From positions 3,992 through 67,991 of the forward strand of contig JANYBP010000103.1 of assembly GCA_025360745.1 (NCBI GenBank): a stretch of 64,000 nt of DNA. Direction: 5' to 3'. A model generated the notes under the pieces. That model was given only the letters and a program-made list of their open reading frames with translations. It was not told the DNA's origin and did no database searches. This DNA is from a bacterium (GTDB lineage Bacteria > Verrucomicrobiota > Kiritimatiellia > CAIKKV01 > CAIYGI01). Both the position numbers and the translations under genes were made by a program. Below, piece by piece: positions 1 to 62,914 of the stretch. The first letter of the stretch is position 1. Every line of letters begins with the position of its first letter.

Positions 1-399
1 TCCGATCCCGAACGACGGCAAAAATGGGCGCGCTATCTGGAGCAACTGCGTAAAATGCCGCCCACCAACGCGCGCTTTGTCTGCAAGGCCGGCCGCGCCG
101 ATTTTCATCTGGATCCCTACGGAATCGTGCGCCCCTGCGTGATGTTCCCGGGCGCAGGAGCAGACGCGCGCGTTCTGTCGTTCGCGGAGGCCTGGCGGCA
201 GATTTCAACGATGGTTAAAAAGGCTACAATTGCGGTTGACGTTTCATGCCGGTCGTGTAACAATTATGCCTTGTCAAGTTCATGCAGCGCGGTTGCGGAG
301 CTCGAAACCGGATTTTCGGACCGTTGTTCGGAATATTTGTGCGAACTGGGCAGGGCAAGAGCTGATTTATTGAGTAGTAAACGACAGGCATGGAGGTGA
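1..399 (+). CDS. radical SAM enzyme, C-terminal SPASM/twitch domain (5' partial; reading frame open to window edge)
   Basis: Frame 1 has no stop from nt 1 to the TGA at 397-399. The C terminus carries SPASM-like Cys spacing: C-x12-G-x4-C (VCKAGRADFHLDPYGIVRPC), then C-x2-C-x8-C (CRSCNNYALSSSC) and further Cys residues. It is followed 4 nt later by a small Cys-containing ORF. Confidence 0.6.
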   Translation, partial: SDPERRQKWARYLEQLRKMPPTNARFVCKAGRADFHLDPYGIVRPCVMFPGAGADARVLSFAEAWRQISTMVKKATIAVDVSCRSCNNYALSSSCSAVAELETGFSDRCSEYLCELGRARADLLSSKRQAWR

Positions 400-403
400 G
401 CGT

Positions 404-538
404 ATGAAGAAGACGCAGAAAGCCAAGTACGAAAAGCCCCGGGTCAAGGCCGTGGAACTCGCCACGGAGGAAGTGCTGAGCAGTGGCTGTCGTCAGGCCG
501 ATGTTTGCGACGTCAATGGCAGTTTCAAAGGCTATTGA
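404..538 (+). CDS. 44-aa putative RiPP precursor peptide (MKKTQKAKYEKPRVKAVELATEEVLSSGCRQADVCDVNGSFKGY)
   Basis: ATG at 404 with GGAGG 7 nt upstream; TGA at 536-538. It is not in the supplied ORF track because it is under 60 aa. It has a Lys-rich leader and an acidic middle. The C-terminal core has 2 Cys, 3 Ser and a terminal Gly-Tyr. It sits between an rSAM/SPASM gene and an HprK-like kinase gene. Confidence 0.5.
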   Translation: MKKTQKAKYEKPRVKAVELATEEVLSSGCRQADVCDVNGSFKGY

Positions 539-639
539 GTAGCGCTTTGCCGGACGGGGTTTAGTACACCTTTTAGATTAACGAGCCGTTTGCGAAGGAA
601 ATTCGCACGCGGCTTTTTGTATTTCTCAAGGGGCTTTTA

Positions 640-1548
640 GTGGCAGTACAACGATTTTGGATCGGTGGTTTGGCATACACCTACGAGGCGGATTTCGACC
701 TCGACGTCACGATGTGGCCGCCGTTCTACCGGGGCTTCGATCGCCCGCAGGCGCTGCCCGATGCTCTGGAGCTGGAATGGCATGTGCGTTTAGCCGGAAG
801 CGGCGCGTTCAGGCCGACGGGGACGCCCGAGCTGGAATCGGATGCCTGGCGTCTCTGGCGGGAAGGCGGGACGCGTACGATTGCCTTCGAAGGAGCGCCA
901 CATAATCCCCCGCAATGGACGGCCACGATGGATTTGGACGCGGGACGGGCCGAGGTGCGGTGGAATCAGCAGCTGGTGCCGGTCAGGGACGAGAGTCCGC
1001 TCTTCGGCAAGCTTTTCGCGCTTAATCTGGACCGTCTGTTGACGATGTATCGGCTGGCTGCGGGCGGTAGCGGGATGCTTGTGCATGGCGCCGCGGCCGA
1101 TTTCGACGGTCAAGGGTGGCTATTCATGGGCCGTTCGGATCGCGGCAAGAGCACTTTATCCAACCTGCTCAACCAAACCCGGGCCGCGCTTGTATTGAGC
1201 GACGAAAAGGCCATCGTGCGCAAGTTGCGTAAAGACTTCTGGCTCTGCGGCACGCCCTGGCCCAGCAGCGCCGGATTCGCGACGGCGGCCGTTTGCCCGT
1301 TGCGCGGGTTGGTGTTTCTGGAACATGGAATACAAAACGAGTTGATTCCCCTCGATGCGCCGGAGACCATGCGGCGTTTGCTTGCCATGTTCGCCTGTCC
1401 CTGGCACGATCAGTCGCTCTTCGATCCGCTCGTAACGCTGGGCGGCGAAATGGCTCAAGCGCTGCCGGCCTGGGAATTGCGTTTCCTGCCCAACGAGAGC
1501 GTGGCGGCATTCTTGCGCGAGCGGCTGGCGGGCAAACGATCGGGGTGA
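640..1548 (+). CDS. HPr kinase C-terminal-domain-like P-loop protein (stand-alone HprK-related kinase)
   Basis: Walker-A-like GRSDRGKSTLSNLL resembles the HprK C-domain GxSGxGKSE motif. It has no N-terminal HprK domain. The start is a GTG at 640, and the start is uncertain. Confidence 0.55.
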   Translation: MAVQRFWIGGLAYTYEADFDLDVTMWPPFYRGFDRPQALPDALELEWHVRLAGSGAFRPTGTPELESDAWRLWREGGTRTIAFEGAPHNPPQWTATMDLDAGRAEVRWNQQLVPVRDESPLFGKLFALNLDRLLTMYRLAAGGSGMLVHGAAADFDGQGWLFMGRSDRGKSTLSNLLNQTRAALVLSDEKAIVRKLRKDFWLCGTPWPSSAGFATAAVCPLRGLVFLEHGIQNELIPLDAPETMRRLLAMFACPWHDQSLFDPLVTLGGEMAQALPAWELRFLPNESVAAFLRERLAGKRSG

Positions 1549-1555
1549 TTTTGCT

Positions 1556-2857
1556 ATGAAAGAGATCGGCATCGGACTTCTTGGTTTCGGCACCGTCGGC
1601 GCGGGGGTTGTCGAGGCGCTGCGGAAGAATGGCGACCTCCTGGCCGCCCGCACTGGTGTACGGCTGGTCTTGCGCAAAATTGCCGATCTGGACCTGGAGC
1701 GCGACCGCGGCGTGGCGTTGGATCGCGCGCTGCTCACCACCGATGCCCTGTCGGTGATCGACGATCCCGCCATCCAGATCGTCGTGGAATTGATCGGCGG
1801 CACAAAGATCGCCCGCACCTTCATCGCGCGCGCGTTGGAACACGGCAAGCCGGTGGTCACCGCCAACAAGGCCCTGCTCGCCGAATGCGGCGCCGGAATT
1901 TTCCGGCTGGCCGCGAAGCACGGCGTCGCGGTGGGTTTCGAAGCCAGCGTGGCGGGGGCCATACCGATCGTCAAGGCGCTGCGCGAAGGACTTGTCGGCA
2001 ACCGCATCGCCCGCGTCTACGGGATCTTGAACGGCACCTGCAACTACATCCTGACCCGCATGGAGCGCGAGGGCGACACCTTCGATCACGCGCTCAAGGA
2101 AGCTCAGGCGCACGGTTACGCCGAGTCCGATCCGACGCTCGACGTGGACGGCTGGGACACCGCGCACAAGGCGGTCATTCTGGCTTCGCTGGCCCATGGG
2201 TTCCCGGTGGACATGGCCGCCGTGCACGTCGAAGGCATCCGCACGCTGGCCAAGGTCGATATCGATTATGCCCGCGTTCTGGGCTATCGCGTGAAACTGC
2301 TTGGGGTGGTCAAGGCCGAACCCGATGGCATCGACGTGCGCGTCCACCCCACCTTGATCCCGGCGAACCACATGCTCTCCTCCGTCAACGGAGTTTTCAA
2401 CGCTGTCATGGTGGACGGGGACATCGCCGGCCAGACGGTCTACTTCGGGCGCGGCGCCGGCCGCCTGCCCACCGCCAGCGCCGTCGTGAGCGATCTGGCC
2501 GACCTGGCTGTGACCATGGCCGCCGGAGCGCCCTTTCCGCCGACGCTGCCGCACGATCTCCCCGGCCGCTGTCTGAACATAGGCGAGATAAGTTCGCGAT
2601 ATTACCTGCGCATTTCGCTGCTCGATAAACCGGGCGTGATGGGCGCGCTGACCACCGTGCTGGGCAATCACGGCATCAGCATCGCCTCGGTCGTGCAGAA
2701 AGAAACCCACGCCGGACGCAACGTGCCGGTCATCATCGTCACCCACCGCGCCCGCGAAGCGGATATGAATATCGCGCTGGCCGAAATTGACGCCCGCCCC
2801 TTCGTCGGCGCCAAAACCATCCGGCTGCGCATCGAGGATATTGATGGACAGATTTAG
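1556..2857 (+). CDS. hom: homoserine dehydrogenase
   Basis: N-terminal GLLGFGTVGAGV Rossmann motif, conserved central domain, and a C-terminal ACT domain (LRISLLDKPGVMGALTTVLG). Confidence 0.9.
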   Translation: MKEIGIGLLGFGTVGAGVVEALRKNGDLLAARTGVRLVLRKIADLDLERDRGVALDRALLTTDALSVIDDPAIQIVVELIGGTKIARTFIARALEHGKPVVTANKALLAECGAGIFRLAAKHGVAVGFEASVAGAIPIVKALREGLVGNRIARVYGILNGTCNYILTRMEREGDTFDHALKEAQAHGYAESDPTLDVDGWDTAHKAVILASLAHGFPVDMAAVHVEGIRTLAKVDIDYARVLGYRVKLLGVVKAEPDGIDVRVHPTLIPANHMLSSVNGVFNAVMVDGDIAGQTVYFGRGAGRLPTASAVVSDLADLAVTMAAGAPFPPTLPHDLPGRCLNIGEISSRYYLRISLLDKPGVMGALTTVLGNHGISIASVVQKETHAGRNVPVIIVTHRAREADMNIALAEIDARPFVGAKTIRLRIEDIDGQI

Positions 2858-2922
2858 CGTGTTCGGTGTTGATCTATCCCGAACACTCAAACACCGGACA
2901 CCCGAACAGTAGCGAGAGCCAC

Positions 2923-4329
2923 ATGAGTCCCAAAAAAAATAAGCGGAAGCAAGCCGTCGCCATCAAGGTCGTAAAATTCGGCGGCAGTTCGCTGGCCGAT
3001 GCCCGTCAGATCCGCAAGGTCTTCGAGATCGTGCGCGCCGATCCGGAACGGCGTATCGTGGTCGTCTCGGCGCCCGGCAAACGCTCGCCGGAGGACATGA
3101 AGGTCACCGACCTGCTGATCGCGCTGGCCGAAGCCCAGCTCGCGGGCGCGCCCACCGGCGGCGCACTGGATCGCGTGGTCGAACGCTTCCGCGAGATTCA
3201 ACGCGCGCTGGAACTCCCCGCGGCCGTCACCAGCGCCGTTGAGGACGACCTGCGTCGGCGCCTGGCCGGAGATACCACGCACCGCGGCCGCTTTTTCGAC
3301 AACCTCAAGGCCGCCGGCGAGGACAACTGCGCCCGCGTCGTGGCGGCTGTTTTCAACAAACTCGGATTGCCGGCGCATTACGTGGACCCGCGCGAGGCCG
3401 GTTTGCTGCTGAGCGACGACTTCGGTAACGCCACCGTGCTGCCGGAGTCGTTCGACCGCCTGAAGTCGCTGCGCGACACGCCCGATGTCGCGATCTTCCC
3501 GGGCTTCTTCGGCTACACCGTCAAAGGCGAGGTAGCGACCTTCCCGCGCGGCGGATCGGACATCACCGGTTCCATTCTGGCCGCCGCCGTGAAGGCCGAA
3601 TTATACGAGAATTTCACCGATGTGGATTCGGTCTATGCCGTGGACCCGCGCATTGTCCCCGACGCCCGCGCCATCTCGGTCATCACCTATCAGGAAATGC
3701 GCGAACTGGCCTACGCCGGATTCGGCGTCTTTCACGACGAAGCCATCATGCCCGCCGTGCTGGCCAAGATTCCGATCTGCATCAAGAACACCAACCACCC
3801 CGAGGCCCCCGGCACGCGCATCGTGCCCGAGCGTCCCTACGCCTCGGGCGTCGTGGTCGGCATCGTCGGCGCCGATGGTTTCTGTACGCTCGATGTCAGC
3901 AAGTACCTGATGAACCGCGAGATCGGCTTTGGCCGGCGTCTGCTGCAAATCATCGAGGATGAGGGGCTTTCCTACGAACATGCGCCTTCCGGAATAGACA
4001 ACACCTCGGTGATCCTGCGCGAAAAAGATGTGACGCCCGAGATCGAGGCCCGGCTCTGCGAGCGCGTTCGCGACGAACTGGGCGCCAACGACGTCGGCTT
4101 CGAGCACGGCCTGGCGCTGCTCATGATCGTCGGCGAGGGCATGCGTTACACCGTCGGGCTGTCGGCCAAGGCCTGCACGGCGCTGGCCGCCGCCGGGGTC
4201 AATATCGACATGATCAACCAGGGTTCCTCCGAAATCAGCGTCATGTTCGGCATCAAGGCCGCGGATCGTAAACGGGCGATCAAGGCGCTTTACAACGCGT
4301 TTTTCCCGAAAACGCGGGCGGAATCGTGA
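2923..4329 (+). CDS. lysC: aspartate kinase
   Basis: VVKFGGSSLAD amino-acid-kinase signature. C-terminal ACT domains. The ATG at 2923 is preferred over the ORF-track start at 2866. Confidence 0.9.
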   Translation: MSPKKNKRKQAVAIKVVKFGGSSLADARQIRKVFEIVRADPERRIVVVSAPGKRSPEDMKVTDLLIALAEAQLAGAPTGGALDRVVERFREIQRALELPAAVTSAVEDDLRRRLAGDTTHRGRFFDNLKAAGEDNCARVVAAVFNKLGLPAHYVDPREAGLLLSDDFGNATVLPESFDRLKSLRDTPDVAIFPGFFGYTVKGEVATFPRGGSDITGSILAAAVKAELYENFTDVDSVYAVDPRIVPDARAISVITYQEMRELAYAGFGVFHDEAIMPAVLAKIPICIKNTNHPEAPGTRIVPERPYASGVVVGIVGADGFCTLDVSKYLMNREIGFGRRLLQIIEDEGLSYEHAPSGIDNTSVILREKDVTPEIEARLCERVRDELGANDVGFEHGLALLMIVGEGMRYTVGLSAKACTALAAAGVNIDMINQGSSEISVMFGIKAADRKRAIKALYNAFFPKTRAES

Positions 4330-5412: not shown

Positions 5413-6954
5413 TCAGCGAATATCCGCGACCGGTTCGCGGCCGGGGGCGTCGAGCCCGCGCCGTTCGAGCAGCGAGCCTTCCAGCCTGTAGAGGGCGATA
5501 TAGGCGTCGAGATGCGTCACGATCGCCAGGCTCTCGGTGATCTGGCTGTTCAACAGATCCCGCGCCGCCACGGCCACCAGCAGGGCTGTCGATTTTCCGA
5601 CCAGCAACTTCCCATTTTCCGCTTCCAGCACCTCTTCCTGAAGCTGCCGCGCCGCCGAAGTGGCCGCCACCTGTTCGCGTGAACGGACCACCTCCACATA
5701 GGCCGAGCGCACGTCCACTTCGGCCAGTTGCTTCAGGTTGTCCATGGCCTCGCGAGTCTGATCGAGGCTGTAATCCGCCCGCCGCCGCCTGGCATGGGCG
5801 TCGCGATTGCCCAGCGCATATTCGAACTGCAGCCCGAACGATAGGTCGCTGGCGTTGCCCTTAAGATCGCTGACCGAGCGCCCGAACGAATCGCCGTAGC
5901 CTGTTTTTCCAAGGTTGACGAAGGCATCCAGCCGCGGCAGCAGGCCGTTTTTCGTTTTCACGATTTCCAACTCGCCGCGGCGGACGGATAAACGCGCCTG
6001 GTTGAGATCCGGACGCATCCGCATGGCCACGGCCACATGTGCGCCGACGTCGTCCAGGGGTTCCTTCGGAACCGGCGGGGCGTCCTTCAGGACGATCTCG
6101 CGGTCCCATCCCCCGGCGCCGGGCGGATTGACCAGTTGGATCATTCTAAGGCGGCCTTTTTCCATGGCGCCTTGCGCATCGATCAGAAACTCGCGGCGCA
6201 AGGCCACTTCGGCCTCGGCCGATTTCAATTCCACGCGCGAGAGTTTGCCGACGCGGATGCGCGCCGCGATTTCGTCGCGCTGCTGTTCCGCCACCGCCAG
6301 GGATTGCTTCACGATCTCCAACTGCCTGCGCGCCAGAGCCAGACTCCAGTAGGCGGTTTCGACCTGCGCCACAAAGTTCTCGGTATAACCGCGCAATTCG
6401 TATTCCGTCACCCGCGTGTCGAGGCGGGCCTGCCGCAGGCTGGCCAGATTGACCGCCGTGCCAAAGCCATTGAGCAGCGACTGGCTCGCGGACAGGCCCA
6501 CCCGCGTCGCTGCCTGACGGTCGCTGTAGAGCGTCGAGTTGTCTATTTCAGTCGTTCCTTGCAGCCCGATGCGCGTGCCGGTCGGAAGCAACTCGGAGAT
6601 CCCCAGCGCGCCGGAGATGCTGTCGGAATTGACCTGGTTGGTGCTGGAAAAAGGCGTGATCTGCGCGTTGTTGGCCCTGGTCTTTTGCGCCTGCGCGGTC
6701 AGACTGGGATCGAAGGCCGCAACGGCCTGTTGCTCGAAGGTTTTCTGAATGGCCGGATTCCAGCGCTGCACACGCAGGGCCGGGTTGTTCTCCAGCGAGA
6801 TCAACAGGGCGTCACGCAGGGTGAGTTCCACCGACGCCCTCGACGCGACACCCACCGCCCCCGTGGACGCGGAAGGCGCCGGCGCCGCGGAAGCCAGGCC
6901 GGCGCCGGACAGCAACATGCCCGCGAAAGCAATGGCGCAATAAATAATCTTCAT
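5413..6954 (-). CDS. RND efflux outer membrane factor (TolC/OprM family)
   Basis: Signal peptide and two-repeat OEP architecture. It is last in the MFP-RND-OMF operon. Confidence 0.85.
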   Translation of the reverse strand: MKIIYCAIAFAGMLLSGAGLASAAPAPSASTGAVGVASRASVELTLRDALLISLENNPALRVQRWNPAIQKTFEQQAVAAFDPSLTAQAQKTRANNAQITPFSSTNQVNSDSISGALGISELLPTGTRIGLQGTTEIDNSTLYSDRQAATRVGLSASQSLLNGFGTAVNLASLRQARLDTRVTEYELRGYTENFVAQVETAYWSLALARRQLEIVKQSLAVAEQQRDEIAARIRVGKLSRVELKSAEAEVALRREFLIDAQGAMEKGRLRMIQLVNPPGAGGWDREIVLKDAPPVPKEPLDDVGAHVAVAMRMRPDLNQARLSVRRGELEIVKTKNGLLPRLDAFVNLGKTGYGDSFGRSVSDLKGNASDLSFGLQFEYALGNRDAHARRRRADYSLDQTREAMDNLKQLAEVDVRSAYVEVVRSREQVAATSAARQLQEEVLEAENGKLLVGKSTALLVAVAARDLLNSQITESLAIVTHLDAYIALYRLEGSLLERRGLDAPGREPVADIR

Positions 6955-7011
6955 GATTCGTGCCTGCTCAGGTTTGTGACAAGTGAACAGTAAACAGTGA
7001 ACGGTGAACAG

Positions 7012-10000
7012 TCAAACCGAGTTCGCCTTCACTGCTTGCCGTTCACTGTTCACTTCCCCGCTGTTAAAATGGCGATGGGTCGCCATCTGGACCCTTTCCA
7101 TATAGAGATAGAACACCGGGGTGACATAAAGCGTCAGGGTTTGCGAAAACAACAGTCCGCCGACCACCGCCAGTCCGAGCGGCTGGCGCGCTTCGCCGCC
7201 GGCGCCGTAGCCGAAGGCGATGGGCAGGCCGCCCATCAGCGCCGCCATGGTGGTCATCATGATCGGACGGAAGCGGATCATGCAGGCCTCGTGGATCGCC
7301 TCGTCGGCCGCCTTGCCGCCCCGGCGCGCCTCGATCGCGAAGTCAACCATCATAATGCCGTTCTTTTTCACCAGGCCCACCAGCATGATGATGCCGACGA
7401 AGGCGTAGATCGAAAGTTCGGCGTTGAAGAGCAGCAGGGTCACCAGCGCGCCGAAACCCGCGAAAGGCAGGGCGGAGAGAATCGTGATCGGATGCCAGAA
7501 GTTCTCATAGAGGATGCCCAGCACAATGTAAATGACCACGATCGCGAGTATCAGCAGGATGCCCATGCTCTTGATGGAATTTTGAAACGCCTGCGCCTCG
7601 CCCTGGAAATTGCCCGAGACCCCGCCGCCGGCCAGTTGCCGTTCCATGATCTTGTCCACCTGTTTGACCGCCTCGCCGATGGAGACGCCGGGTTTCAAAT
7701 TGAACGAAATCGTCACCGACGGGAGCTGGCCGAAGTGGTTGATCGTCAACGGTCCGACGCCCGGCCGCAGGTCGGCCGCGGCGTTGATCGGCACCAGCAG
7801 TCCCGAGGAGGAGCGCACATTCAGGAGCGGCAGCGCGGCCGCGTTCTGCTGGTATTCCGGCATCAGTTCCAGGATCACCTGGTACTGGTTGTTGGGCGCG
7901 TAAATCGTGGAAGCCTGACGGGAACCGTAGGCGTTGTACAAGGCGTTTTCGATCTGCGCGACCGACAGGCCCATGGACGAGGCCAGGTCGCGGTTGATCT
8001 TGATGTCGAGTTCGGGGTTCTTCAACTGCATGTCGCTGTTCACGTCCTGAAACCCCGGCAGGGCGGCCATGGCCTCCATCAACCTGGCGGTCTGCCGGTA
8101 GAGTTCGTCCGCGTCCGTCGCCTGTAGCGTATATTGGTATTTGCTCTTGGACGACTGGCCGCCGATCGGGATGGTCGGAGGAATCACCGCGTAGGCCCGG
8201 ATACCCGGCACGGAGGCCAGGAACGGCTGCAATTTGCGAATCACGCCGTCCACGCTCAATTCCCGCTGGGCGCGTGGTTTCAGGCGGACCATCATGCGTC
8301 CGACGTTTGCGCCGCTACTGCCGCGCGAGCCGCCGCTCGACATGAAAGCTTCGATGTTGGGATCCTTGCGGACGAGTTCCGCCAGCGCCTGCTGATGTGT
8401 CAGCATCGACTTGAAAGAGATGCCTTCCGCGGCTTCGGTGGTGATGGTGAACATGTCGCGATCCTCGCTGGGAATAAATCCCATCGGCACGATCGTGAAC
8501 AGCCAGCCCGTCAATCCCAGCGCCAGAATCGCCAGCGTCATGGTGCGGGCGGGCCGGCGCAAAACCCACCAGAGGGTGCGGTGGTAAAACTCCAGCATGG
8601 CTTGGAAACCGCGCTCCGTGACGGCATAGATGTGGCCATGGCGAATCGAGGCCGGCGCGCGCAAAAAGCGGCTGCACAACATGGGCGTCAGGGTCAGCGA
8701 AATCACGCCCGAAATCAGCACCGCCGCGCCGATGGTCACCGCGAACTCCCGGAAAATCCGGCCCATCAGGCCGCCCATGAACAGGACGGGAATGAACACC
8801 GCCGCCAGCGACAGCGTCATCGAGACGATGGTGAAGCCGATTTCCCGCGCCCCGTCCAGAGCCGCCTCCATCCGTTGCTTGCCCATTTCCATGTGCCGCA
8901 CGATATTTTCGAGCATCACGATGGCGTCGTCCACCACGAAGCCGATGGCCAGGGTCAGGGCCATCAGCGACAGGTTATCCAGACTGTAATTCAACACGTT
9001 CATCGCCGCGAAGGTGCCGATCAGCGACATCGGCAGCGCCAGCGCCGGTATCACGGTCGCCGAGACGTTGCGCAGAAACACAAAGATGACCAGCACCACC
9101 AGCAAGAAGGTCAGAACCAGGGTGAACTCGGCGTCGTGAACCGAGGCGCGAATCGACAGGCTGCGGTCGAACAAGGTGGTCAGCGTGACCGCCGCCGGCA
9201 GTTTTTTCTGAAGCTCGGGCATCAGCGCCTTCACGGCGTCGGCCACTTCCACCGTGTTCTTGCCAGGCTGCCGCATGATGGCCAGAATCACGGCGCGCTG
9301 CTGGCCGGCCGCCGTGCAATACCAGGCGGCGACCTTGTCGTTTTCCACGCTGTCCGTGACCCGGCCGAGGTCGCCCAGTCGCACCGGCGCGCCTTTGCGA
9401 TAGGTCACGATCAGCGAGCGATAGCCGTCCGCCTTCATGATCTGGCCGTCGGTCTGAATCGTGACCGCCCGGTACGGGCCGTAGAGGATGCCGGAGGGCT
9501 GGTTCACGTTGCCCTGGGCGATCGCGTCGGCCACCTCGTTGATGCCGATTCCGTGGGCGGCCAGCGCCATCGGGTCAACCTGGATGCGCACGGCATACTT
9601 CTGGGAGCCGAAAACCTGGACCTGGGCCACGCCGTCCACCATCGATATCCGCTGCGCCATCAGCGTCTGTCCGTATTCGTCCAGCGCCGACAACGGCAGC
9701 GTCGGGCTGGTCAGCACCAGATAGAGAAAGGGCGAGTCGGCCGGGTTGGATTTTTGAAAAGAGGGCGGTGACGGCATGTCGGCCGGCAATTGCCGCCCGG
9801 CGCGGGCAATCGAAGCCGTCACGTCCAGAGCCGCGGCGTCAATGTCGCGATCCAGGGCGAAGGTCAGCGTGATCTGCGAACTGCCCAGAGCGCTGGAGGA
9901 GTTCATGGACTCCAGGCCGGCGATCATCGAGAACTGCTTTTCGAGCACGGTGGCCACCGAGGAGGCCATCGTTTCGGGACTGGCGCCCGGCAGGGAGGCC

Positions 10001-10143
10001 GAAACCTGGATCGTGGGATAATCCACCGTGGGCAGGTCGCTGACCGGCAGACTCCGGAAGCCGACGATTCCAGCGAGCAGAATGCTCGCCATGACCAGCG
10101 TGGTCGTAACGGGGCGGCGGATAAAAAGGGCGGCGATATTCAA
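7012..10143 (-). CDS. efflux RND transporter permease subunit (AcrB/HAE1 family)
   Basis: 1043 aa, 12-TM AcrB-like architecture. The N terminus is MNIAALFIRRPVTTTLVMASILLAG. Confidence 0.95.
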   Translation of the reverse strand: MNIAALFIRRPVTTTLVMASILLAGIVGFRSLPVSDLPTVDYPTIQVSASLPGASPETMASSVATVLEKQFSMIAGLESMNSSSALGSSQITLTFALDRDIDAAALDVTASIARAGRQLPADMPSPPSFQKSNPADSPFLYLVLTSPTLPLSALDEYGQTLMAQRISMVDGVAQVQVFGSQKYAVRIQVDPMALAAHGIGINEVADAIAQGNVNQPSGILYGPYRAVTIQTDGQIMKADGYRSLIVTYRKGAPVRLGDLGRVTDSVENDKVAAWYCTAAGQQRAVILAIMRQPGKNTVEVADAVKALMPELQKKLPAAVTLTTLFDRSLSIRASVHDAEFTLVLTFLLVVLVIFVFLRNVSATVIPALALPMSLIGTFAAMNVLNYSLDNLSLMALTLAIGFVVDDAIVMLENIVRHMEMGKQRMEAALDGAREIGFTIVSMTLSLAAVFIPVLFMGGLMGRIFREFAVTIGAAVLISGVISLTLTPMLCSRFLRAPASIRHGHIYAVTERGFQAMLEFYHRTLWWVLRRPARTMTLAILALGLTGWLFTIVPMGFIPSEDRDMFTITTEAAEGISFKSMLTHQQALAELVRKDPNIEAFMSSGGSRGSSGANVGRMMVRLKPRAQRELSVDGVIRKLQPFLASVPGIRAYAVIPPTIPIGGQSSKSKYQYTLQATDADELYRQTARLMEAMAALPGFQDVNSDMQLKNPELDIKINRDLASSMGLSVAQIENALYNAYGSRQASTIYAPNNQYQVILELMPEYQQNAAALPLLNVRSSSGLLVPINAAADLRPGVGPLTINHFGQLPSVTISFNLKPGVSIGEAVKQVDKIMERQLAGGGVSGNFQGEAQAFQNSIKSMGILLILAIVVIYIVLGILYENFWHPITILSALPFAGFGALVTLLLFNAELSIYAFVGIIMLVGLVKKNGIMMVDFAIEARRGGKAADEAIHEACMIRFRPIMMTTMAALMGGLPIAFGYGAGGEARQPLGLAVVGGLLFSQTLTLYVTPVFYLYMERVQMATHRHFNSGEVNSERQAVKANSV

Positions 10144-11282
10144 GGTTTGGCGGCCTCGTTTTTCGTGCCGCCGTCCTTGATCTCGACCTTGGAGCCCGGC
10201 GCCAGCCGCAACTGGCCGTCCGTTACCACCCGTTCGCCGGCGGCTACGTCTCCGGGCGCGAGCACGGTGTCCTCATCCATGATGCGGTTCACGCTGACCA
10301 CGCGATCCTCGACCCTCTGGTCCGGCTTGACCACGTAAAGGTAGGTTCCCTTCTGACCGGTGAGCACGGACGACGACGGCACGACCAGGGCATTTGTTTC
10401 CACGAGCAGCGTCAATTCGACACGCACGAACTGGCCCGGCCACAGGCGCTTGACCTCATTTGAAAAAGTTCCCTTGATCTGCAGCGTGCCGGTGGTCTTA
10501 TCCACCTCGTTATTGATGAAGGTGACGATTCCGGATTCGGGCAGGTTGGTGTCGCCGCCGATCATGGCCTTGACGAGCAGCCCGTTGGCGGAGGCCGGCA
10601 TCAGCCGCAGCAGATCCTGCTGCGGCACGGCAAACGAGACGCGGGCGGGGACAATGCGGTTCAGGACCAGCAGGACGGTTTCGTTGGCCATGACGACATT
10701 GCCGGGATCGACCAGGCGGGCGCCGGTGCGGCCGTCGAAGGGCGCGCGGATGGTGCAATATTCAAGCATCAGGCGCGCGTTATCCTCGGCCGCCTCGTCC
10801 GCCTGGACCGTGGCCTGCATGGCCAGCGCCGCCGTGTGCGCCTGGTCGCGCGCATCCTCCGCCGCAAAGCCTTTCTTAAGCAGCTCGTCCTGGCGTCCGG
10901 CCTCCTTGGCGGCGTTGTCGCTCTGAGCCCTGTCTTTGGCCAGATTGGCCTCCGCCTGGCGCAGCGCCGACAGCGCCGGCCTGGCGTCGAGGGTGAAAAG
11001 CAGGTCGCCGGTATGGACATCCTGGCCTTCCTTGAAATAAACGTTGGTCACCAGCCCGCCGACCTGCGGCTTGACCGCCGCCGTCTCGTAGGCTTCCACA
11101 GTGCCAAACGTCCGCAAAGTCACCGGCATGGCCTTCTGGACCACCTCCGCCATGGTCACGGGAACCGGCCCCGGCCCGCCACCCGCCCCGGCCTTGCCCC
11201 CGGCCCGGCTTTTTTCGTAAACCCGCCAGCCCCCCAGCCCGGCCACACCCACCGCCAGCAGAATCAGAATCGTTTTTTTCAT
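10140..11282 (-). CDS. efflux RND transporter periplasmic adaptor (membrane fusion protein)
   Basis: HlyD/AcrA-like coiled-coil and beta-barrel domains. It overlaps the RND gene by 4 nt. Confidence 0.9.
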   Translation of the reverse strand: MKKTILILLAVGVAGLGGWRVYEKSRAGGKAGAGGGPGPVPVTMAEVVQKAMPVTLRTFGTVEAYETAAVKPQVGGLVTNVYFKEGQDVHTGDLLFTLDARPALSALRQAEANLAKDRAQSDNAAKEAGRQDELLKKGFAAEDARDQAHTAALAMQATVQADEAAEDNARLMLEYCTIRAPFDGRTGARLVDPGNVVMANETVLLVLNRIVPARVSFAVPQQDLLRLMPASANGLLVKAMIGGDTNLPESGIVTFINNEVDKTTGTLQIKGTFSNEVKRLWPGQFVRVELTLLVETNALVVPSSSVLTGQKGTYLYVVKPDQRVEDRVVSVNRIMDEDTVLAPGDVAAGERVVTDGQLRLAPGSKVEIKDGGTKNEAAKP

Positions 11283-12722: not shown

Positions 12723-15098
12723 GTGGGGCGGGTGAATACTAACGGTTCCCAGATCTCCGTGGCGCCCGACGATCCGTCGCGCCGTCGCGCCGTCGCGGCG
12801 CTTTTGAAAAAGGGCGGACACGTTCATTTAGCGGGCATCGGCGGCATCGGCATGGCCGGGCTGGCGGTGCTCTTGCGGGGACGGGGTTTCATGGTTTCGG
12901 GCTGCGATCTGGCCGCCACGCCGCTTACCGTCTGGCTGACGGCCCGCAGTATGACGGTTTTCCATGGGCATGGCGCCGAACATGTGCTGGCGCCCGCGTC
13001 GCCGGTGGATTGGCTGATTTATAGCGCGGCGCTCTCCGCGGACTCCCCGGAATTGGCGGCGGCGCGCGCGGCGGGCATTCCGCTCCATCGGCGCGGCGAG
13101 GTCCTGCCGGCGCTGGTGACGGGGCCGGGCTCGGTCACCGTCAGCGGCACGCACGGCAAGACCACCACCACAACCCTGCTGACCCTGATTCTGCGCGCGG
13201 CGGGGCGCGATCCCACCTTCTGCATCGGCGGCGAGGTGGCGGCTTTGGGCGGTCCGGCCGGGGTCGGGCGCGACCCGTGGATTGTCGCCGAGGCCGACGA
13301 GAGCGACGGCACGGCCGCGCTCTACCGGCCCGCGCTGGCCGTGGTGACCAACATCGAATTCGACCACATGGAGCATTTCGCCGATGTCACGGCCTTTGAA
13401 GCCTGCTTCCAAACCCTCATGCTGAATGCGGGACGCGTGGTCTACGGCTGCGACGATCCGCGCGCGGCGCGACTGGGCGCGGCCTGTCCCGGCGCCCGCT
13501 CGTTCGGGTTGTCCGCGGAGGCGAATGTACGGGCGGTGGATGTGGCCCTCGAACCAATGGCGGTGCGCTTCCGCATGCAGCGCGACAATCTGGCGCTGGG
13601 CACGCTGCGCCTGCCGCTGCCGGGCCGGCACAATCTGCTCAATGCCCTGGCGGCCGCGGCGGCGGCCTTCGAACTGGGGCTGGATTTCGACGCCGTGCGG
13701 CGGGGTTTGGAGACGGCCGAACTGCCACGCCGGCGCTTCGAACGATTTGTGGAGCGCGAGGATATTCAGGTGGTTTCCGATTACGCCCATCATCCCAGCG
13801 AAATCGCGGCGCTGATTTCCGCGGCGCGCGCGCTGGGCCGGCGGATCGTGGCCGTCTTTCAGCCGCACCGCTTCACCCGCACGCGCGCGCTGGGGACGGA
13901 TTTTCCGGCGGCTTTCGCCGGGGTGTCCGATTTGATTTTGACGCCGGTCTATGCCGCCTCCGAAACGCCGCTGGAAGGCGGTACGATCTGGGATCTCTAC
14001 GGCCACTTCCGCCGCTCCGCCGCCGGGCCGGCGCGGGTCTCGGTGGCGGACAGTCTGGCGGGCGCCTGGGCCGCGCTGCGCACGCGGCTGGGCGCGGGCG
14101 ATCTGCTGCTGGTGGTTGGCGCGGGCGACGTGGAACGCATTGCCTGCTGGGCGCGCGAGGCGCTGGTCGGCGTGCCGGTCGCGGCGCTTAGTCCCGTGGC
14201 AAGCTGGCAACGCGCCGTACTGGCGCTGCCGCTGAGTCAGGCCACGGTGGTGCGCGCACATGAGCCGCTGGCGAAACACACGACGCTCGGCGTCGGCGGC
14301 CCGGCCGATCTATGGGCGGAAGTGGGAACGCCGGCGGACCTGAATGTACTGCTCGATTGGGCGGCGGGGGCGGATGTGCCATGGCGGGTGCTGGGCGGCG
14401 GGAGCAATACCTGGGCGGCGGATGACGGCGTACGCGGACTGACCATCCGGCTGAGCGGGCCCGCATTCGATTCACTGGCCTGGACCACCGACAGCGTGAC
14501 CGCGGGCGCGGCGCTGCCGGTGACGGCGTTGGCCGCGCAGGCGGCGGCGCGCGGGCTGGGCGGTCTGGAATTTTTGCACGGCATCCCGGGCACGCTGGGC
14601 GGCGCGGCGCGCGGCAATGCCGGGGCCTGGGGACGCGCCTTCGAAAATGTGCTGGCGGAATTGGTGACGCGCGAGCCCGACGGCCGTGAACGCGTTTGGA
14701 CCCGTTCGGAACTCGACTATCGCTATCGCGAATGTCCATGCCTGGCTGGCCGCGTGGTCTTGCGGGCGGTCCTGCGGCTGACTCCGGCGGAACCCGCGGC
14801 GCTGGCGGCGACGCTGCGCGACCAGGCGGCGCGGCGCGAATGGCAGCGCGGCCTGCGTTCGGCGGGCTCGGTCTTTCGCAATCCCCCCGGCGATTTTGCC
14901 GGACGCTTGCTGGAAGCCTGCGGCTGCAAAGGCATGACGCTGGGCGGCGCGCGCTTTTCCGAACGGCACGCCAACGTGATTGTGACCGCCGCGGACGCCA
15001 CGGCCTCCGACGTGCGCGCGCTCCTGGAACTGGCGCGCGATACCGTGCAGCGCCAAACCGGAATCCTGCTGGCGCCGGAATACTCTTTGCTTAAGTAG
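12723..15098 (+). CDS. murC/murB: bifunctional UDP-N-acetylmuramate--L-alanine ligase / UDP-N-acetylenolpyruvoylglucosamine reductase (MurC-MurB fusion)
   Basis: The N-terminal roughly 470 aa are MurC (IGGIGMAGLA, GTHGKTTTT P-loop, Mur ligase middle and C domains). The C-terminal roughly 300 aa are MurB (FAD-binding PCMH domain EPLAKHTTLGVGGPAD, plus the MurB C-domain). Confidence 0.85.
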   Translation: MGRVNTNGSQISVAPDDPSRRRAVAALLKKGGHVHLAGIGGIGMAGLAVLLRGRGFMVSGCDLAATPLTVWLTARSMTVFHGHGAEHVLAPASPVDWLIYSAALSADSPELAAARAAGIPLHRRGEVLPALVTGPGSVTVSGTHGKTTTTTLLTLILRAAGRDPTFCIGGEVAALGGPAGVGRDPWIVAEADESDGTAALYRPALAVVTNIEFDHMEHFADVTAFEACFQTLMLNAGRVVYGCDDPRAARLGAACPGARSFGLSAEANVRAVDVALEPMAVRFRMQRDNLALGTLRLPLPGRHNLLNALAAAAAAFELGLDFDAVRRGLETAELPRRRFERFVEREDIQVVSDYAHHPSEIAALISAARALGRRIVAVFQPHRFTRTRALGTDFPAAFAGVSDLILTPVYAASETPLEGGTIWDLYGHFRRSAAGPARVSVADSLAGAWAALRTRLGAGDLLLVVGAGDVERIACWAREALVGVPVAALSPVASWQRAVLALPLSQATVVRAHEPLAKHTTLGVGGPADLWAEVGTPADLNVLLDWAAGADVPWRVLGGGSNTWAADDGVRGLTIRLSGPAFDSLAWTTDSVTAGAALPVTALAAQAAARGLGGLEFLHGIPGTLGGAARGNAGAWGRAFENVLAELVTREPDGRERVWTRSELDYRYRECPCLAGRVVLRAVLRLTPAEPAALAATLRDQAARREWQRGLRSAGSVFRNPPGDFAGRLLEACGCKGMTLGGARFSERHANVIVTAADATASDVRALLELARDTVQRQTGILLAPEYSLLK

Positions 15099-56720: not shown

Positions 56721-56835
56721 ATCCCGGCAGCGCGCTACTCTCCCATGACTACTGCCACAGTACCATCGCCGCAGAGGCCCTTCACTTCCGTGTTCGGTAT
56801 GGGAACGGGTGTTACTTCCTCGCTATGGCCACCGG
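56721..56835 (-). rRNA. rrf: 5S ribosomal RNA
   Basis: The reverse complement reads CCCGGTGGCCATAGCGAGGAAGTAACACCCGTTCCCATACCGAACACGGAAGTGAAG... Confidence 0.9.
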
Positions 56836-56911
56836 GAAAAATTAATATTTAAATTAATTGACCGGCTTCGAGATGGGCATCCAAAGGCTAGCGCTAAAAA
56901 GCGACCGATGG

Positions 56912-59876
<2,965 letters not shown>

Positions 59877-60028
59877 GATAAATCGGTCGAATCTCAGCGC
59901 TTGTAGTCCTTAAAAGATGCCCATCTCGATGCACATGTCAAAGAGCAAACCGCTTGCGCGGCGGAAACTGTCGGCGCCAACGCGCTCCCAGCCTCCTAAA
60001 AATCGTTTTGACCAGCGGTCCACCTGCA

Positions 60029-60105
60029 TGGTGGGCGTGCCTGGAGTCGAACCAGGGACCTTGTCCTTATCAGGGACACGCTCTAACCAACTGAGCTACA
60101 CGCCC
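60029..60105 (-). tRNA. tRNA-Ile (GAT)
   Basis: The reverse complement reads GGGCGTGTAGCTCAGTTGGTTAGAGCGTGTCCCTGATAAGGACAAGGTCCCTGGTTCGACTCCAGGCACGCCCACCA. Confidence 0.9.
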
Positions 60106-60212
60106 TACTTCGCGCTTCGGCTGCGCCTCGCGCTTCGTAGGGCGAGCCCGCGTTGTCCGGCTTGCCATGCGAAGCTCAAGTTCGCCTGCGGCGAACGCAG
60201 AGCGAAGCATAG

Positions 60213-60285
60213 TGGAGGCAACCGGGCTCGAACCGGTGGCCCCGAGCTTGCAAAGCTCGTGCTCTACCAACTGAGCTATGCCCCC
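60213..60285 (-). tRNA. tRNA-Ala (TGC) with G3:U70
   Basis: The reverse complement reads GGGGGCATAGCTCAGTTGGTAGAGCACGAGCTTTGCAAGCTCGGGGCCACCGGTTCGAGCCCGGTTGCCTCCA. The anticodon is TGC. A G3-U70 wobble is present. Confidence 0.9.
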
Positions 60286-60513
60286 GAGGTTCAGAACGCA
60301 TCCGGTATGCCGACGCCAGTCCCCAAAGGACCGGCTCCACGGCGTCCGCTGTTCCGAATAGCCAACAGCCCGCACAGATTACCATGCGAGCCTAGGCCGC
60401 TGTTTCGGTTCGAAAGAGGTGCGGTGAGTCCAGTGTTCCGTCTTCGGCCGGACGCCGAAGCGTCCGACCGATCGACCCTGGTTGAACTTCCGGGCTTGCG
60501 CCCTTCAGAACAA

Positions 60514-62087
<1,574 letters not shown>

Positions 62088-62914
62088 GAATAATGATTCC
62101 AATGCCGCCACCGGTTTGACCCGGCAGCGGACTTATCGATCGCTATCTCATCTTTTAAACCCGAAGCCGCTTGCGCGACCCCGGGCGACGGAGCACCTTC
62201 TTCACCGCACCGCTTCCGAATCGAAGCAGTGCCTCAGGCTATTCGGTTGTCAAAGAACCAAGACCCCGGACTTCACCCGAATCGAACGCGCGTTTTCGTT
62301 TCACACACGGGATTCCGTTAACAAGTCCGGCGTCAGTCGCGAAAGAGAAAGATATAAAAACACGCCGGAGACGTCAACGAAAGATTGACGGAATTGTAGG
62401 GTTTTTATGAAACGTACTAAATATGCCAGCAAACAGATGCATTCTGTATGCTCCATATGGGGAAATTTTGCGCGGCGGCTGACGCCGCCTGGGCACGCAG
62501 CGCGCCCGCACACCCTCGAAGGCCTCCCGTTTGCAAGCCATCACGCACGCCCCGCCCCGGCAACACCCCGTTCGCCGCCGTCATACACCATATCCCAACC
62601 TGCCATCTTACGGTTCCAGGGGCAGGTATCGCCAGACCCCCTTTTTATTAGCTATTATTTAAGACGCACATCTTCCAGCAACATCACGGTACCATAATAA
62701 AATTTAGCAGGACTCGTGCCACTTACAGACGCATTGCGAACAGAGCGGCCGCCAAGGCATCGAAATCTTCGCCGTTCAAGGACTCGACGCAAGCCGCCTC
62801 CGGCGTCGCACCCACGGTCGCGCATCCAGCTCGGATGCGCAAACCAAACGTCCGGGTTCCGTTTTCAGTTTTTAGGTGTGCAAGGGGTTGCACGCGCTCA
62901 ACCGTTTTGCTTCA

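What the first reader, a model, noticed from the sequence alone, without database searches (positions are those of the whole stretch)
404..538. Unannotated 44-codon ORF encoding a precursor-like peptide ending in Gly-Tyr
The peptide is MKKTQKAKYEKPRVKAVELATEEVLSSGCRQADVCDVNGSFKGY. It was missed by the 60-aa ORF cutoff. It has a good RBS and is wedged 4 nt after the rSAM stop. Its layout (basic N-terminus, acidic EEVL segment, then a Cys-x5-Cys core and a C-terminal Gly-Tyr) recalls mycofactocin MftA. MftA is ...EEVSIDGMCGVY, and the rSAM/SPASM enzyme MftC decarboxylates and cross-links its terminal Val-Tyr. The layout also recalls two-Cys thioether (sacti/ranthi-type) substrates. The Ser-rich stretch LSSG could be the kinase target.
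Basis: partly seen in the sequence, partly recalled or inferred. Interest (0 to 1): 0.7.

Follow-up and report, generated by a model that had tools for sequence, protein, structure and literature searches.

The report
Precursor peptide of rSAM–kinase RiPP cassette
The 44-codon ORF is a real, strongly conserved gene that most likely encodes the precursor peptide of an uncharacterised four-gene peptide-modification cassette (peptide chaperone, radical-SAM enzyme, peptide, HPr-kinase-like enzyme), but it is not a mycofactocin-like Gly-Tyr substrate.

Summary
The ORF at 404-538 (+) is exactly as described: ATG start, GGAGG 7 nt upstream, 4 nt after the radical-SAM stop. It is a real gene. Ten close homologues exist, and dN/dS is 0.04-0.08 at near-saturated synonymous sites.

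A contig identical over the locus shows the operon, which recurs in lineages with 30-37% identical enzymes: PqqD-like chaperone, rSAM/SPASM enzyme, this peptide, then an ScmC-family protein (window 640-1548).

In 25 of 27 loci the ScmC gene has a small same-strand ORF just upstream with a lasso-type Y-x-x-P-x-V leader. Controls gave 1 of 27 and 1 of 66.

In the rSAM-linked branch only Pro12 and Cys29 are invariant. Close relatives also keep Cys35, C-x3-[D/N], Asp36 and GSFKG.

The terminal Gly-Tyr is not conserved: tails are Y, ADY, VGS, GGGS, GGSTP, TNS, ADGS, TS, AS. The mycofactocin analogy therefore fails.

Best reading: a RiPP precursor, docked by the chaperone, Cys-crosslinked by the rSAM enzyme and phosphorylated by ScmC. 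The chemistry is inferred, not shown. It is a new variant of a known kind.

The parts
1..399 (+). 3' end (last 132 codons plus stop) of the radical SAM/SPASM maturase gene. The 5' part and the PqqD-like gene lie upstream of the window start.
   Evidence: Translation. The full 360-aa protein is on the identical contig L001 at 2803-3885, preceded by a 98-aa PqqD protein at L001 2506-2802. Pfam Radical_SAM E 1.7e-20; PqqD E 8.7e-16. C-terminal Cys invariant among five orthologues: C256, C274, C311, C314, C323, C342.
392..396 (+). Shine-Dalgarno sequence GGAGG, 7 nt before the ATG of the peptide gene.
   Evidence: Read directly from the sequence. Conserved in L003.
404..538 (+). Precursor peptide gene, 44 codons plus stop.
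   Evidence: ORF list. dN/dS 0.04-0.08. Homologues.
404..478 (+). Predicted leader, M1-L25, containing the Y9-E-K-P12-R-V14 motif (428-445) and L19.
   Evidence: Y-x-x-P-x-[VIL]...L is shared by 30 ScmC-associated peptides. Same spacing as the lasso YxxPxL motif bound by B1/RRE proteins (PMC10368454). The leader/core boundary is inferred by analogy, not shown.
479..535 (+). Predicted core, S26-Y44: SSGCRQADVCDVNGSFKGY. Cys29 is at 488-490 and Cys35 at 506-508.
   Evidence: C29 is invariant in all 14 rSAM-linked peptides aligned. In close relatives C35, D36, G38-S-F-K-G42 and C-x3-[D/N] are conserved, and the tail after G42 is variable.
585..618 (+). Stem-loop (585-613) followed by TTTTT (614-618), between the peptide gene and the ScmC gene. 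A likely intrinsic terminator or attenuator.
   Evidence: MFE fold of 536-645 is -34.8 kcal/mol, z = -2.0. The hairpin and U-run are conserved in four loci, with one G-C to A-T compensatory pair. The simple terminator scan did not list it.
640..1548 (+). ScmC-family, HPr-kinase/PEPCK-fold P-loop protein (302 aa). The putative peptide kinase.

Best explanation
The ORF encodes the precursor (A) peptide of a compact RiPP cassette: PqqD-like chaperone, radical SAM/SPASM maturase, precursor, ScmC-family kinase.

Shown:
- The gene is under strong purifying selection.
- The four-gene order is conserved across distant lineages.
- ScmC-family genes are almost always preceded by a small ORF with a Y-x-x-P-x-V...L leader.
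- ScmC has the HPr-kinase fold and the catalytic motif of lasso-peptide kinases.

Inferred:
1. The PqqD protein binds the YEKPRV...L leader, as lasso B1 proteins bind YxxPxL.
2. The leader-bound peptide is presented to the rSAM/SPASM enzyme. That enzyme modifies the core at the invariant Cys29 and probably Cys35. The most likely chemistry is thioether crosslinks to nearby residues, with the conserved C-x3-D/N and Cys35-Asp36 as candidates.
3. ScmC uses ATP to phosphorylate a hydroxyl residue of the same precursor. Candidates are Ser26/27 (17-18 residues after the leader Tyr), Ser39 or the C-terminal residue.
4. A hairpin plus U-run after the peptide gene lets precursor transcripts outnumber kinase transcripts.

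No protease or exporter belongs to the conserved cassette, so leader removal and the fate of the product are unknown.
For: Real gene: dN/dS 0.04-0.08, with differences mostly at third positions. Ten close variants keep the frame.

Operon: PqqD, rSAM, 44-aa ORF and ScmC on contig L001, identical over the locus. The same order occurs in L003, L032, L035 and L038. The rSAM enzymes are 33-37% identical and the ScmC proteins about 30%.

Association: a motif-bearing small ORF lies upstream of ScmC in 25 of 27 loci. Controls gave 1 of 27 on the opposite strand and 1 of 66 in other regions.

Leader: Y, P and V/I/L are invariant and L (+10) is present in 28 of 30 peptides. The PqqD protein's best NCBIfam match is the lasso PqqD chaperone. 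The lasso YxxPxL motif is the B1 recognition site (PMC10368454).

Core: Cys29 is invariant across the rSAM-linked branch. Peptides in the rSAM-free branch have no Cys. Cys therefore tracks the rSAM enzyme.

C-x3-D motif: this is the PapB ranthipeptide motif (PMC9413430).

Kinase:
- Motif H149-G164-x2-(G/D)167-x-G169-K170-S171...D188-E189, against BsfK H148-G163-G166-G168-K169-S170-D186-D187. BsfK phosphorylates Ser3 of its precursor, an activity greatly enhanced by the RRE protein BsfB1 (PMC10368454).
- Other HPr-kinase homologues phosphorylate the C-terminal Ser of lasso precursors (PMC8498205).

Hairpin.
Against: - No chemistry has been observed. Neither the modification type nor the modified residues are known.
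- The rSAM enzyme reaches no curated family cut-off, so thioether formation is only the commonest precedent for Cys-rich SPASM substrates.
- Distant rSAM-linked cores lack Asp after the first Cys (CFTSS, CTEGS), so the C-x3-D acceptor is not general.
- The proposed Ser/Thr phospho-site at Y+18/19 is absent in the EEVLAVGC, EEVLAIAC and EEALVANC peptides.
- The window's own peptide ends in Tyr, which BsfK did not accept.
- No protease or transporter is conserved next to the cassette.
- L008 lacks an adjacent PqqD gene.
Confidence: 0.75

Rival explanations
1. Mycofactocin-like redox-cofactor precursor. The rSAM/SPASM enzyme would oxidatively decarboxylate and cyclise the C-terminal Gly-Tyr, as MftC does on MftA.
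For: The window peptide ends in Gly-Tyr. Among NCBIfam models, the MftC model aligns with the rSAM enzyme over nearly its full length, residues 27-332. A PqqD/MftB-like chaperone is present. No exporter is in the cassette, which would fit an intracellular product.
Against: The terminal residues are not conserved: only 2 of 10 close variants end in Tyr, 7 end in Ser and 1 in Pro. The MftC score is 94 bits against a cut-off of 265. No MftD, MftE or MftF genes are nearby. The conserved core features are Cys29/Cys35 and GSFKG, not the C-terminus.
Confidence: 0.03
2. Lasso-peptide precursor with a tailoring kinase. The leader would be cut after L25 and Ser26 joined to Asp33 (core position 8) by a cyclase encoded elsewhere.
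For: The YxxPxV leader has lasso spacing, with Val at -2 as in the Ile/Val(-2) lasso leaders. The PqqD protein is most similar to lasso B1 chaperones. The kinase motif matches lasso kinases. Asp lies at predicted core position 8.
Against: No Asn-synthetase-like cyclase or B2 protease lies within the flanks of any of the rSAM-type loci. Position 8 is Asn in 4 of 10 close variants (P0005, P0042, P0044 and the L037 copy of P0005 counted once gives 3 of 9 distinct cores), and Asn cannot form the isopeptide. Distant relatives have no acidic residue at core positions 7-9. A rSAM enzyme, not a cyclase, is the conserved partner.
Confidence: 0.04
3. The peptide is a substrate of PqqD and ScmC only, as in the rSAM-free cassettes. 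The rSAM enzyme would act on something else, or only on the phosphorylated product in a non-crosslinking way such as epimerisation, methylation or C-C coupling.
For: Many ScmC cassettes have PqqD, a peptide and ScmC but no rSAM enzyme. The PqqD-peptide-ScmC trio is therefore the ancestral unit. The rSAM enzyme matches no curated family.
Against: Cys appears in the peptides only where a rSAM enzyme is present, and Cys29 sits at a fixed distance from the leader. The rSAM stop and the peptide start are 4 nt apart. Gene order is conserved.
Confidence: 0.12
4. Chance ORF, or a small protein unrelated to peptide modification (for example a regulator).
For: The ORF is short, and no Pfam or NCBIfam model matches it.
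Against: dN/dS is 0.04-0.08. The RBS is conserved. Its position between the maturase genes is conserved across 30-37% identical systems. It shows the leader-plus-variable-core architecture typical of RiPP precursors.
Confidence: 0.03

Closest known systems
SynChlorMet (SCM) cassette of NCBIfam/TIGRFAMs (ScmC TIGR04249, ScmD TIGR04248, ScmE TIGR04250, ScmF TIGR04251)
   Same: It combines a PqqD-family protein, a PqqE-like radical SAM/SPASM enzyme and an ScmC-family protein. ScmC is the best NCBIfam hit of window 640-1548, and Pfam PF27840 ScmC hits it.
   Different: All scores are far below the equivalog cut-offs: ScmC 27 vs 125, ScmE 67 vs 400, ScmF 49 vs 400, ScmD 28 vs 100. There is one rSAM gene instead of two. 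Here the precursor is identifiable. From memory only, the TIGRFAM description says no precursor had been identified for SCM. I found no paper on it.
Lasso-peptide kinase plus B1 (RRE) module, e.g. BsfK/BsfB1 and PadeK (paeninodin)
   Same: An HPr-kinase homologue with the H...GxxGxGKS...D(D/E) motif, a stand-alone PqqD-like RRE, and a YxxPx(L/V) leader. BsfK phosphorylates Ser3, 19 residues after the leader Tyr, and BsfB1 stimulates it (PMC10368454). PadeK-type kinases phosphorylate the C-terminal Ser (PMC8498205). In this family, 7 of 10 close variants end in Ser.
   Different: No lasso cyclase or B2 protease is present; a rSAM/SPASM enzyme is the partner instead. The second catalytic acid is Glu, not Asp. 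The phospho-site is unknown, and the window's peptide ends in Tyr.
Ranthipeptides / sactipeptides (e.g. PapA/PapB freyrasin, SkfA/SkfB)
   Same: A short precursor with a K-x-Y-x-K-P-x-(L/V) type leader, conserved Cys in the core and a rSAM/SPASM maturase. C-x3-D, as in the PapB motif, is present here (PMC9413430). SkfB is the second-best solved-structure match to the rSAM enzyme.
   Different: The rSAM enzyme is not in the PapB, SkfB, AlbA or StsB families by curated cut-offs. The RRE is a separate protein. A kinase is part of the cassette. The acceptor residue is not conserved in distant relatives.
Mycofactocin (MftA/MftB/MftC)
   Same: A small peptide, a PqqD-like chaperone and a SPASM rSAM enzyme. 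This copy of the peptide ends in Gly-Tyr.
   Different: The C-terminal Tyr is not conserved. The MftC score is below cut-off. There are no MftD, MftE or MftF genes. The conserved features are Cys residues that MftA chemistry does not need.

Membership tests
RiPP precursor peptide (generic) | Short ORF co-oriented with and adjacent to maturase genes, under purifying selection | tested here: met
   It starts 4 nt after the rSAM stop and ends about 100 nt before the ScmC gene. dN/dS is 0.04-0.08. Synteny holds in L001, L003, L032, L035 and L038.
RiPP precursor peptide (generic) | Conserved leader with an RRE recognition motif, plus a more variable core | tested here: met
   Y-x-x-P-x-[VIL]-x4-L is conserved in 30 peptides, while the cores differ between branches.
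RiPP precursor peptide (generic) | The peptide is post-translationally modified | not testable with these tools
   Needs mass spectrometry.
Mycofactocin system | Precursor ends in a conserved ...Gly-Val-Tyr, whose terminal Tyr is the site of chemistry | tested here: not met
   The tail after FKG is Y, ADY, VGS, GGGS, GGSTP, TNS, ADGS, TS or AS.
Mycofactocin system | The rSAM enzyme scores above the MftC equivalog cut-off (TIGR03962, 265 bits) | tested here: not met
   94 bits.
Mycofactocin system | mftD, mftE and mftF genes in the neighbourhood | tested here: not met
   The neighbours are a surface protein upstream and hom, lysC and a URO-D-like gene downstream.
SynChlorMet cassette | ScmC equivalog (TIGR04249, cut-off 125 bits) | tested here: not met
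   27.4 bits, E 2e-6. The broader Pfam family PF27840 ScmC does hit it.
SynChlorMet cassette | Two rSAM/SPASM proteins, ScmE and ScmF, above cut-off (400 bits each) | tested here: not met
   There is one rSAM gene, scoring 66.6 bits on ScmE and 48.8 bits on ScmF.
SynChlorMet cassette | PqqD-family ScmD (TIGR04248, cut-off 100 bits) | tested here: not met
   28 bits. The Pfam PqqD domain is present, E 8.7e-16.
Ranthipeptide / sactipeptide | Radical SAM enzyme with CxxxCxxC and a C-terminal SPASM/twitch Cys cluster | tested here: met
   C39-x3-C43-x2-C46 plus six invariant C-terminal Cys. Full-length matches to PqqE and SkfB structures.
Ranthipeptide / sactipeptide | Conserved Cys donors in the core | tested here: met
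   C29 is invariant in 14 of 14 rSAM-linked peptides. C35 is invariant in close relatives, and a second or third Cys is present in nearly all others.
Ranthipeptide / sactipeptide | Maturase belongs to a characterised thioether-forming family (PapB, AlbA, SkfB or StsB cut-offs) | tested here: not met
   All are far below cut-off, e.g. StsB 87 vs 625 and SkfB 45 vs 300.
Ranthipeptide / sactipeptide | S-C thioether bond in the product | not testable with these tools
   Needs MS/NMR.
Lasso peptide | YxxPxL leader motif and a B1/RRE protein | tested here: met
   The leader has YEKPRV. The PqqD protein's best hit is lasso_PqqD_Bac, but at 31 bits against a cut-off of 80.
Lasso peptide | Asn-synthetase-like cyclase (C) and transglutaminase-like protease (B2) in the cluster | tested here: not met
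   Neither is present in the flanks of L001, L003, L008, L032 or L035.
Lasso peptide | Conserved Asp/Glu at core position 7-9 | tested here: not met
   Position 8 is D or N in close variants and non-acidic in distant ones.
HPr-kinase-type RiPP peptide kinase (BsfK/PadeK-like) | HprK/PEPCK P-loop fold | tested here: met
HPr-kinase-type RiPP peptide kinase (BsfK/PadeK-like) | Catalytic motif His...G-x2-G-x-G-K-S...Asp-Asp | tested here: met
   H149, G164, G169, K170, S171 and D188 are invariant. Position 167 is Gly in more than 90% of sequences (Asp in the window protein). The second acid is Glu189. The BsfK motif is taken from PMC10368454.
HPr-kinase-type RiPP peptide kinase (BsfK/PadeK-like) | ATP-dependent phosphorylation of the precursor peptide | not testable with these tools
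   Needs an enzyme assay or MS.

The most novel reading that the evidence does not exclude
ScmC-family kinases, together with a PqqD-type chaperone, may define a large and so far undescribed superfamily of RiPP cassettes. The family has at least 1,000 clusters at 50% identity. Its precursors share a lasso-type Y-x-x-P-x-V leader but are not lasso peptides. The rSAM/SPASM branch represented here would make a peptide that is both Cys-crosslinked and O-phosphorylated. To my knowledge that combination is not described for any RiPP class, and it would also point to the missing precursors of the SynChlorMet-type cassettes.
Probability: 0.35. Interest if true: 0.75.

Novelty: new variant of a known kind. 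Interest (0 to 1): 0.6.

Why it matters
- It turns an anonymous 44-codon ORF into a testable substrate for two uncharacterised enzymes: a rSAM/SPASM maturase outside all curated families, and an ScmC-family kinase.
- It gives a simple rule for finding precursors next to about a thousand ScmC-family clusters: a small same-strand ORF just upstream with Y-x-x-P-x-V...L.
- If the chemistry is confirmed, it links the lasso-type leader/RRE/kinase module to radical-SAM crosslinking. That would be a new combination for RiPP engineering and genome mining.
- It removes a misleading lead, the mycofactocin-like cofactor.

Tried and rejected
- Mycofactocin analogy: rejected because the C-terminal tails vary and the MftC score is below cut-off.
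- Lasso peptide: considered because of the leader, the RRE and the kinase. Rejected as membership because no cyclase or B2 protease is present and core position 8 varies between D and N.
- Curated families for the peptide: none in Pfam or NCBIfam for this peptide or for eight relatives.
- Literature: no papers for 'SynChlorMet', for 'ScmC' with radical SAM, or for HPr kinase with PqqD, radical SAM and precursor peptide. The rSAM-RiPP compendium PMC10288494 mentions neither kinase, HPr nor Scm.
- Sequence search of solved structures with the ScmC profile: only generic P-loop hits, with weak HprK hits at E 0.005-0.007. The fold search was needed.
- The simple terminator scan did not list the hairpin at 585-618. 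It was found by folding and alignment.
- A universal kinase site at Y+18/19: it holds for 28 of 30 peptides of the first set. It fails for the EEVLAVGC, EEVLAIAC and EEALVANC peptides, so it stays open.
- The genome-contig scan gave only one relative, L003. Canonical SCM loci (Syntrophobacter, Chlorobium) could therefore not be fetched for comparison.
- Taxonomy of the window was not determined. A 16S gene is present at 60525-62089, but no rRNA reference database was available.

Full report
**1. The observation**

The ORF is at 404-538 on the + strand. It starts with ATG, has 44 codons and a TGA stop, and translates to MKKTQKAKYEKPRVKAVELATEEVLSSGCRQADVCDVNGSFKGY.

The frame-1 ORF that runs off the window start ends at TGA 397-399. 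Four bases separate that stop from the ATG. GGAGG sits at 392-396.

The truncated upstream product has the Cys-rich tail of a SPASM-type radical SAM enzyme.

The word 'unannotated' could not be checked, because I have no annotation of the window. However, the identical 44-aa product is already in the public protein collection, with NCBI and Logan as sources, on a 68,423-nt contig. It was called as a gene on every contig I fetched.

**2. It is a real gene**

A word-indexed search and a cluster look-up found nine further variants at 84-91% identity. One more lies on a GTDB genome contig, L003.

I compared four nucleotide orthologues: the window, L003, L037 and L038.
- Synonymous sites are near saturation, with dS 0.9-1.7.
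- dN is only 0.05-0.10, so dN/dS is 0.04-0.08.
- Of 20-27 differences per pair, 14-18 are at third codon positions.

The RBS is conserved.

**3. Context**

The window begins inside the cluster. Contig L001, identical over the locus, supplies the missing upstream part.
- A large surface protein comes first (InlB B-repeat and TSP3 repeats).
- It is followed by a 98-aa PqqD-family protein and a 360-aa radical SAM/SPASM enzyme.
- Then come the 44-aa ORF and a 302-aa protein that Pfam assigns to ScmC (PF27840).
- Downstream are housekeeping genes: homoserine dehydrogenase, aspartate kinase and a URO-D/MtaA-like protein.

None of the three enzymes reaches a curated NCBIfam cut-off.

| Protein | NCBIfam model | Score (bits) | Cut-off (bits) |
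|---|---|---|---|
| rSAM | NirJ2 | 98 | 500 |
| rSAM | MftC | 94 | 265 |
| rSAM | ScmE | 67 | 400 |
| PqqD | lasso_PqqD_Bac | 31 | 80 |
| PqqD | ScmD | 28 | 100 |
| 302-aa protein | ScmC | 27 | 125 |

**4. The cassette is conserved far beyond close relatives**

ScmC homologues at 30-42% identity were found by protein search. I fetched 33 loci for them.

In 25 of 27 loci with at least 250 nt of upstream sequence, a small same-strand ORF directly precedes the ScmC gene. Each such ORF contains Y-x-x-P-x-[VLIM]. The same test on the opposite strand gave 1 of 27, and on other regions 1 of 66.

Two branches appear.

*Branch A* has no rSAM enzyme and no Cys in the peptide.
- The peptides read ...YEAPKVSEExLDxGGNYVSP...LG[NT]SIIE.
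- The neighbours are a giant Peptidase_C25/PorU-like protein, PqqD, an ABC exporter, NTP_transf_5 and polysaccharide-export genes.

*Branch B* has a rSAM/SPASM enzyme and Cys-containing peptides.
- The order PqqD, rSAM, peptide, ScmC is seen in L001/window, L003, L032 and L035. L038, whose contig starts just upstream of its rSAM gene, shows rSAM, peptide, ScmC.
- L008 has rSAM, peptide and ScmC but no adjacent PqqD gene.
- The rSAM enzymes are 33-37% identical over their full length. They share CxxxCxxC and six invariant C-terminal Cys.

Further branch-B peptides came from a profile search and from two low-GC contigs.
- Examples are ...YSKPSIKIIELETEEVLAVGCKNSSGVAVSGSFPPCWSNSCQSNGS and ...FETPRLLVIELSNAEEVLAIACKQFPSIDCVSRQGSTGCS.
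- In those two low-GC loci the peptide genes lie after the ScmC gene.

**5. What is conserved in the peptide**

Across all 30 peptides first collected, Tyr (offset 0), Pro (+3) and Val/Ile/Leu (+5) are invariant. Leu at +10 is present in 28 of 30. This is the spacing of the lasso-peptide YxxPxL motif, which B1/RRE proteins recognise (PMC10368454).

Within 14 branch-B peptides, only Pro12 and Cys29 are invariant. Tyr9, Leu19 and Leu25 are at least 90% conserved. The first Cys always follows (E/D)-(V/A)-(L/M)-x3.

Among the ten close relatives, several core features hold.
- Cys29, Cys35, Asp36 and G38-S-F-K-G42 are invariant.
- Residue 33 is Asp in six variants and Asn in three.
- The sequence after Gly42 is free: Y, ADY, VGS, GGGS, GGSTP, TNS, ADGS, TS, AS.

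The terminal Gly-Tyr is therefore a peculiarity of this copy and one other. The mycofactocin analogy fails on its defining feature.

Cys occurs in the peptides only where a rSAM enzyme is present. This ties Cys to the rSAM chemistry.

**6. The ScmC protein**

An alignment of 23 homologues shows these invariant residues: H149, G164, S166, G169-K-S-T172, D188-E189 and a G-[ST]-P-W-P-S-S-A motif.

The motif lines up almost residue for residue with that of the lasso-peptide kinase BsfK, which is H148-G163-G166-G168-K169-S170-D186-D187. BsfK phosphorylates Ser3 of its precursor, and the stand-alone RRE protein BsfB1 strongly stimulates it (PMC10368454). Other HPr-kinase homologues phosphorylate the C-terminal Ser of lasso precursors (PMC8498205).

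The family is large. The ScmC profile finds 1,023 representatives of 50%-identity clusters at E <= 1e-30, and 6,827 at E <= 1e-10.

**7. Where might the kinase act?**

There are two precedent-based candidates, and neither is settled.
- **Ser26/Ser27.** These lie 17-18 residues after the leader Tyr; BsfK's Ser3 lies 19 after. A Ser or Thr occupies +18 or +19 in 28 of the first 30 peptides. It is missing in the EEVLAVGC, EEVLAIAC and EEALVANC peptides.
- **The C-terminal residue.** It is Ser in 7 of 10 close variants and in about 13 of 20 branch-B peptides. It is Tyr in the window's own peptide, and BsfK did not accept Tyr.

The invariant Ser39 is a third option.

**8. RNA feature**

A stem-loop at 585-613 is followed by TTTTT at 614-618. 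It lies between the peptide gene and the ScmC start at GTG 640. It is conserved in four loci with one compensatory pair. It probably acts as a leaky terminator that raises the ratio of precursor transcript to kinase transcript, as is common in RiPP operons. That role is an inference.

**9. Mechanism proposed**

- PqqD binds the YEKPRV...L leader.
- The rSAM/SPASM enzyme crosslinks or otherwise modifies the core at Cys29, and probably Cys35. A thioether is the most likely product. C-x3-D/N resembles the PapB C-x3-D motif (PMC9413430), but distant cores lack it.
- ScmC phosphorylates a hydroxyl residue.
- Nothing in the conserved cassette removes the leader or exports the product.

What is shown is the gene, the synteny, the leader motif, the Cys-rSAM correlation, and the kinase fold and motif. 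Binding, both chemistries and the final product are inferred.

**10. Comparison with known systems, and novelty**

The nearest named system is the SynChlorMet cassette of TIGRFAMs/NCBIfam, but every membership score is far below cut-off and only one rSAM gene is present. The leader, RRE and kinase resemble the lasso B1/K module, without a cyclase or protease. The Cys-rich core with a SPASM enzyme resembles ranthipeptides and sactipeptides, without family membership.

I found no paper on ScmC or SynChlorMet. I rate the finding as a new variant of a known kind (a RiPP cassette). It has moderate to good interest, mainly because the ScmC-associated precursor rule is general and immediately testable.

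Noticed in passing
L004 5827-5994, L005 5750-5884, L007 5778-5948 and about 18 further loci (L010-L036): A second, Cys-free family of ScmC-associated peptides (...YEAPKVSEExLDxGGNYVSP...LG[NT]SIIE). It sits between a PqqD gene and an ScmC gene. The neighbours are a roughly 1,000-1,800-aa Peptidase_C25/PorU-like protein, an ABC exporter, NTP_transf_5 and polysaccharide-export genes. No curated family matches the peptides.
   Followed up: partly
L034 1033-1185 and 1285-1452; L024 726-866: In two low-GC metagenome contigs the precursor genes lie downstream of the ScmC gene instead of upstream. L034 has two tandem copies, and the first may be degenerate after its Cys.
   Followed up: no
L008 6987-8414 (same gene in L009): A 475-aa PAP2 / vanadium-haloperoxidase-like gene overlaps the stop of the ScmC gene in one rSAM-type cassette. 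That cassette also lacks an adjacent PqqD gene. The PAP2 protein could be a phosphatase or an extra tailoring enzyme.
   Followed up: no
window 236-264 (+): A sigma-70-like promoter match (TTGACG, 17 nt spacer, TG-AACAAT) lies inside the 3' end of the rSAM gene, about 140 nt before the peptide start. It could give the precursor its own transcript. It was the only such match in 6 kb, and about one was expected by chance.
   Followed up: no
window 12723-15098 (+): A 791-aa ORF that fuses MurC (three Mur ligase domains) with MurB (FAD_binding_4 plus MurB_C) in one polypeptide.
   Followed up: partly
window 5413-11282 (-): An RND efflux operon: outer-membrane factor (513 aa), AcrB-family pump (1043 aa) and membrane-fusion protein (380 aa). 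It lies a few kb from the cassette on the opposite strand. Nothing shows that it is linked to the peptide.
   Followed up: partly
window 56722-62089 (-): A complete rRNA operon (16S, tRNA-Ala, tRNA-Ile, 23S, 5S). The 16S gene at 60525-62089 could give the taxonomy of the source organism, which I could not determine with the tools at hand.
   Followed up: no
L001 4-2454 and L003 76-4281: The gene upstream of the cassette encodes a very large repetitive surface protein (over 1,400 aa in L003). It has InlB-type B-repeats and a bacterial TSP3 repeat, and it is conserved in position in both relatives.
   Followed up: no
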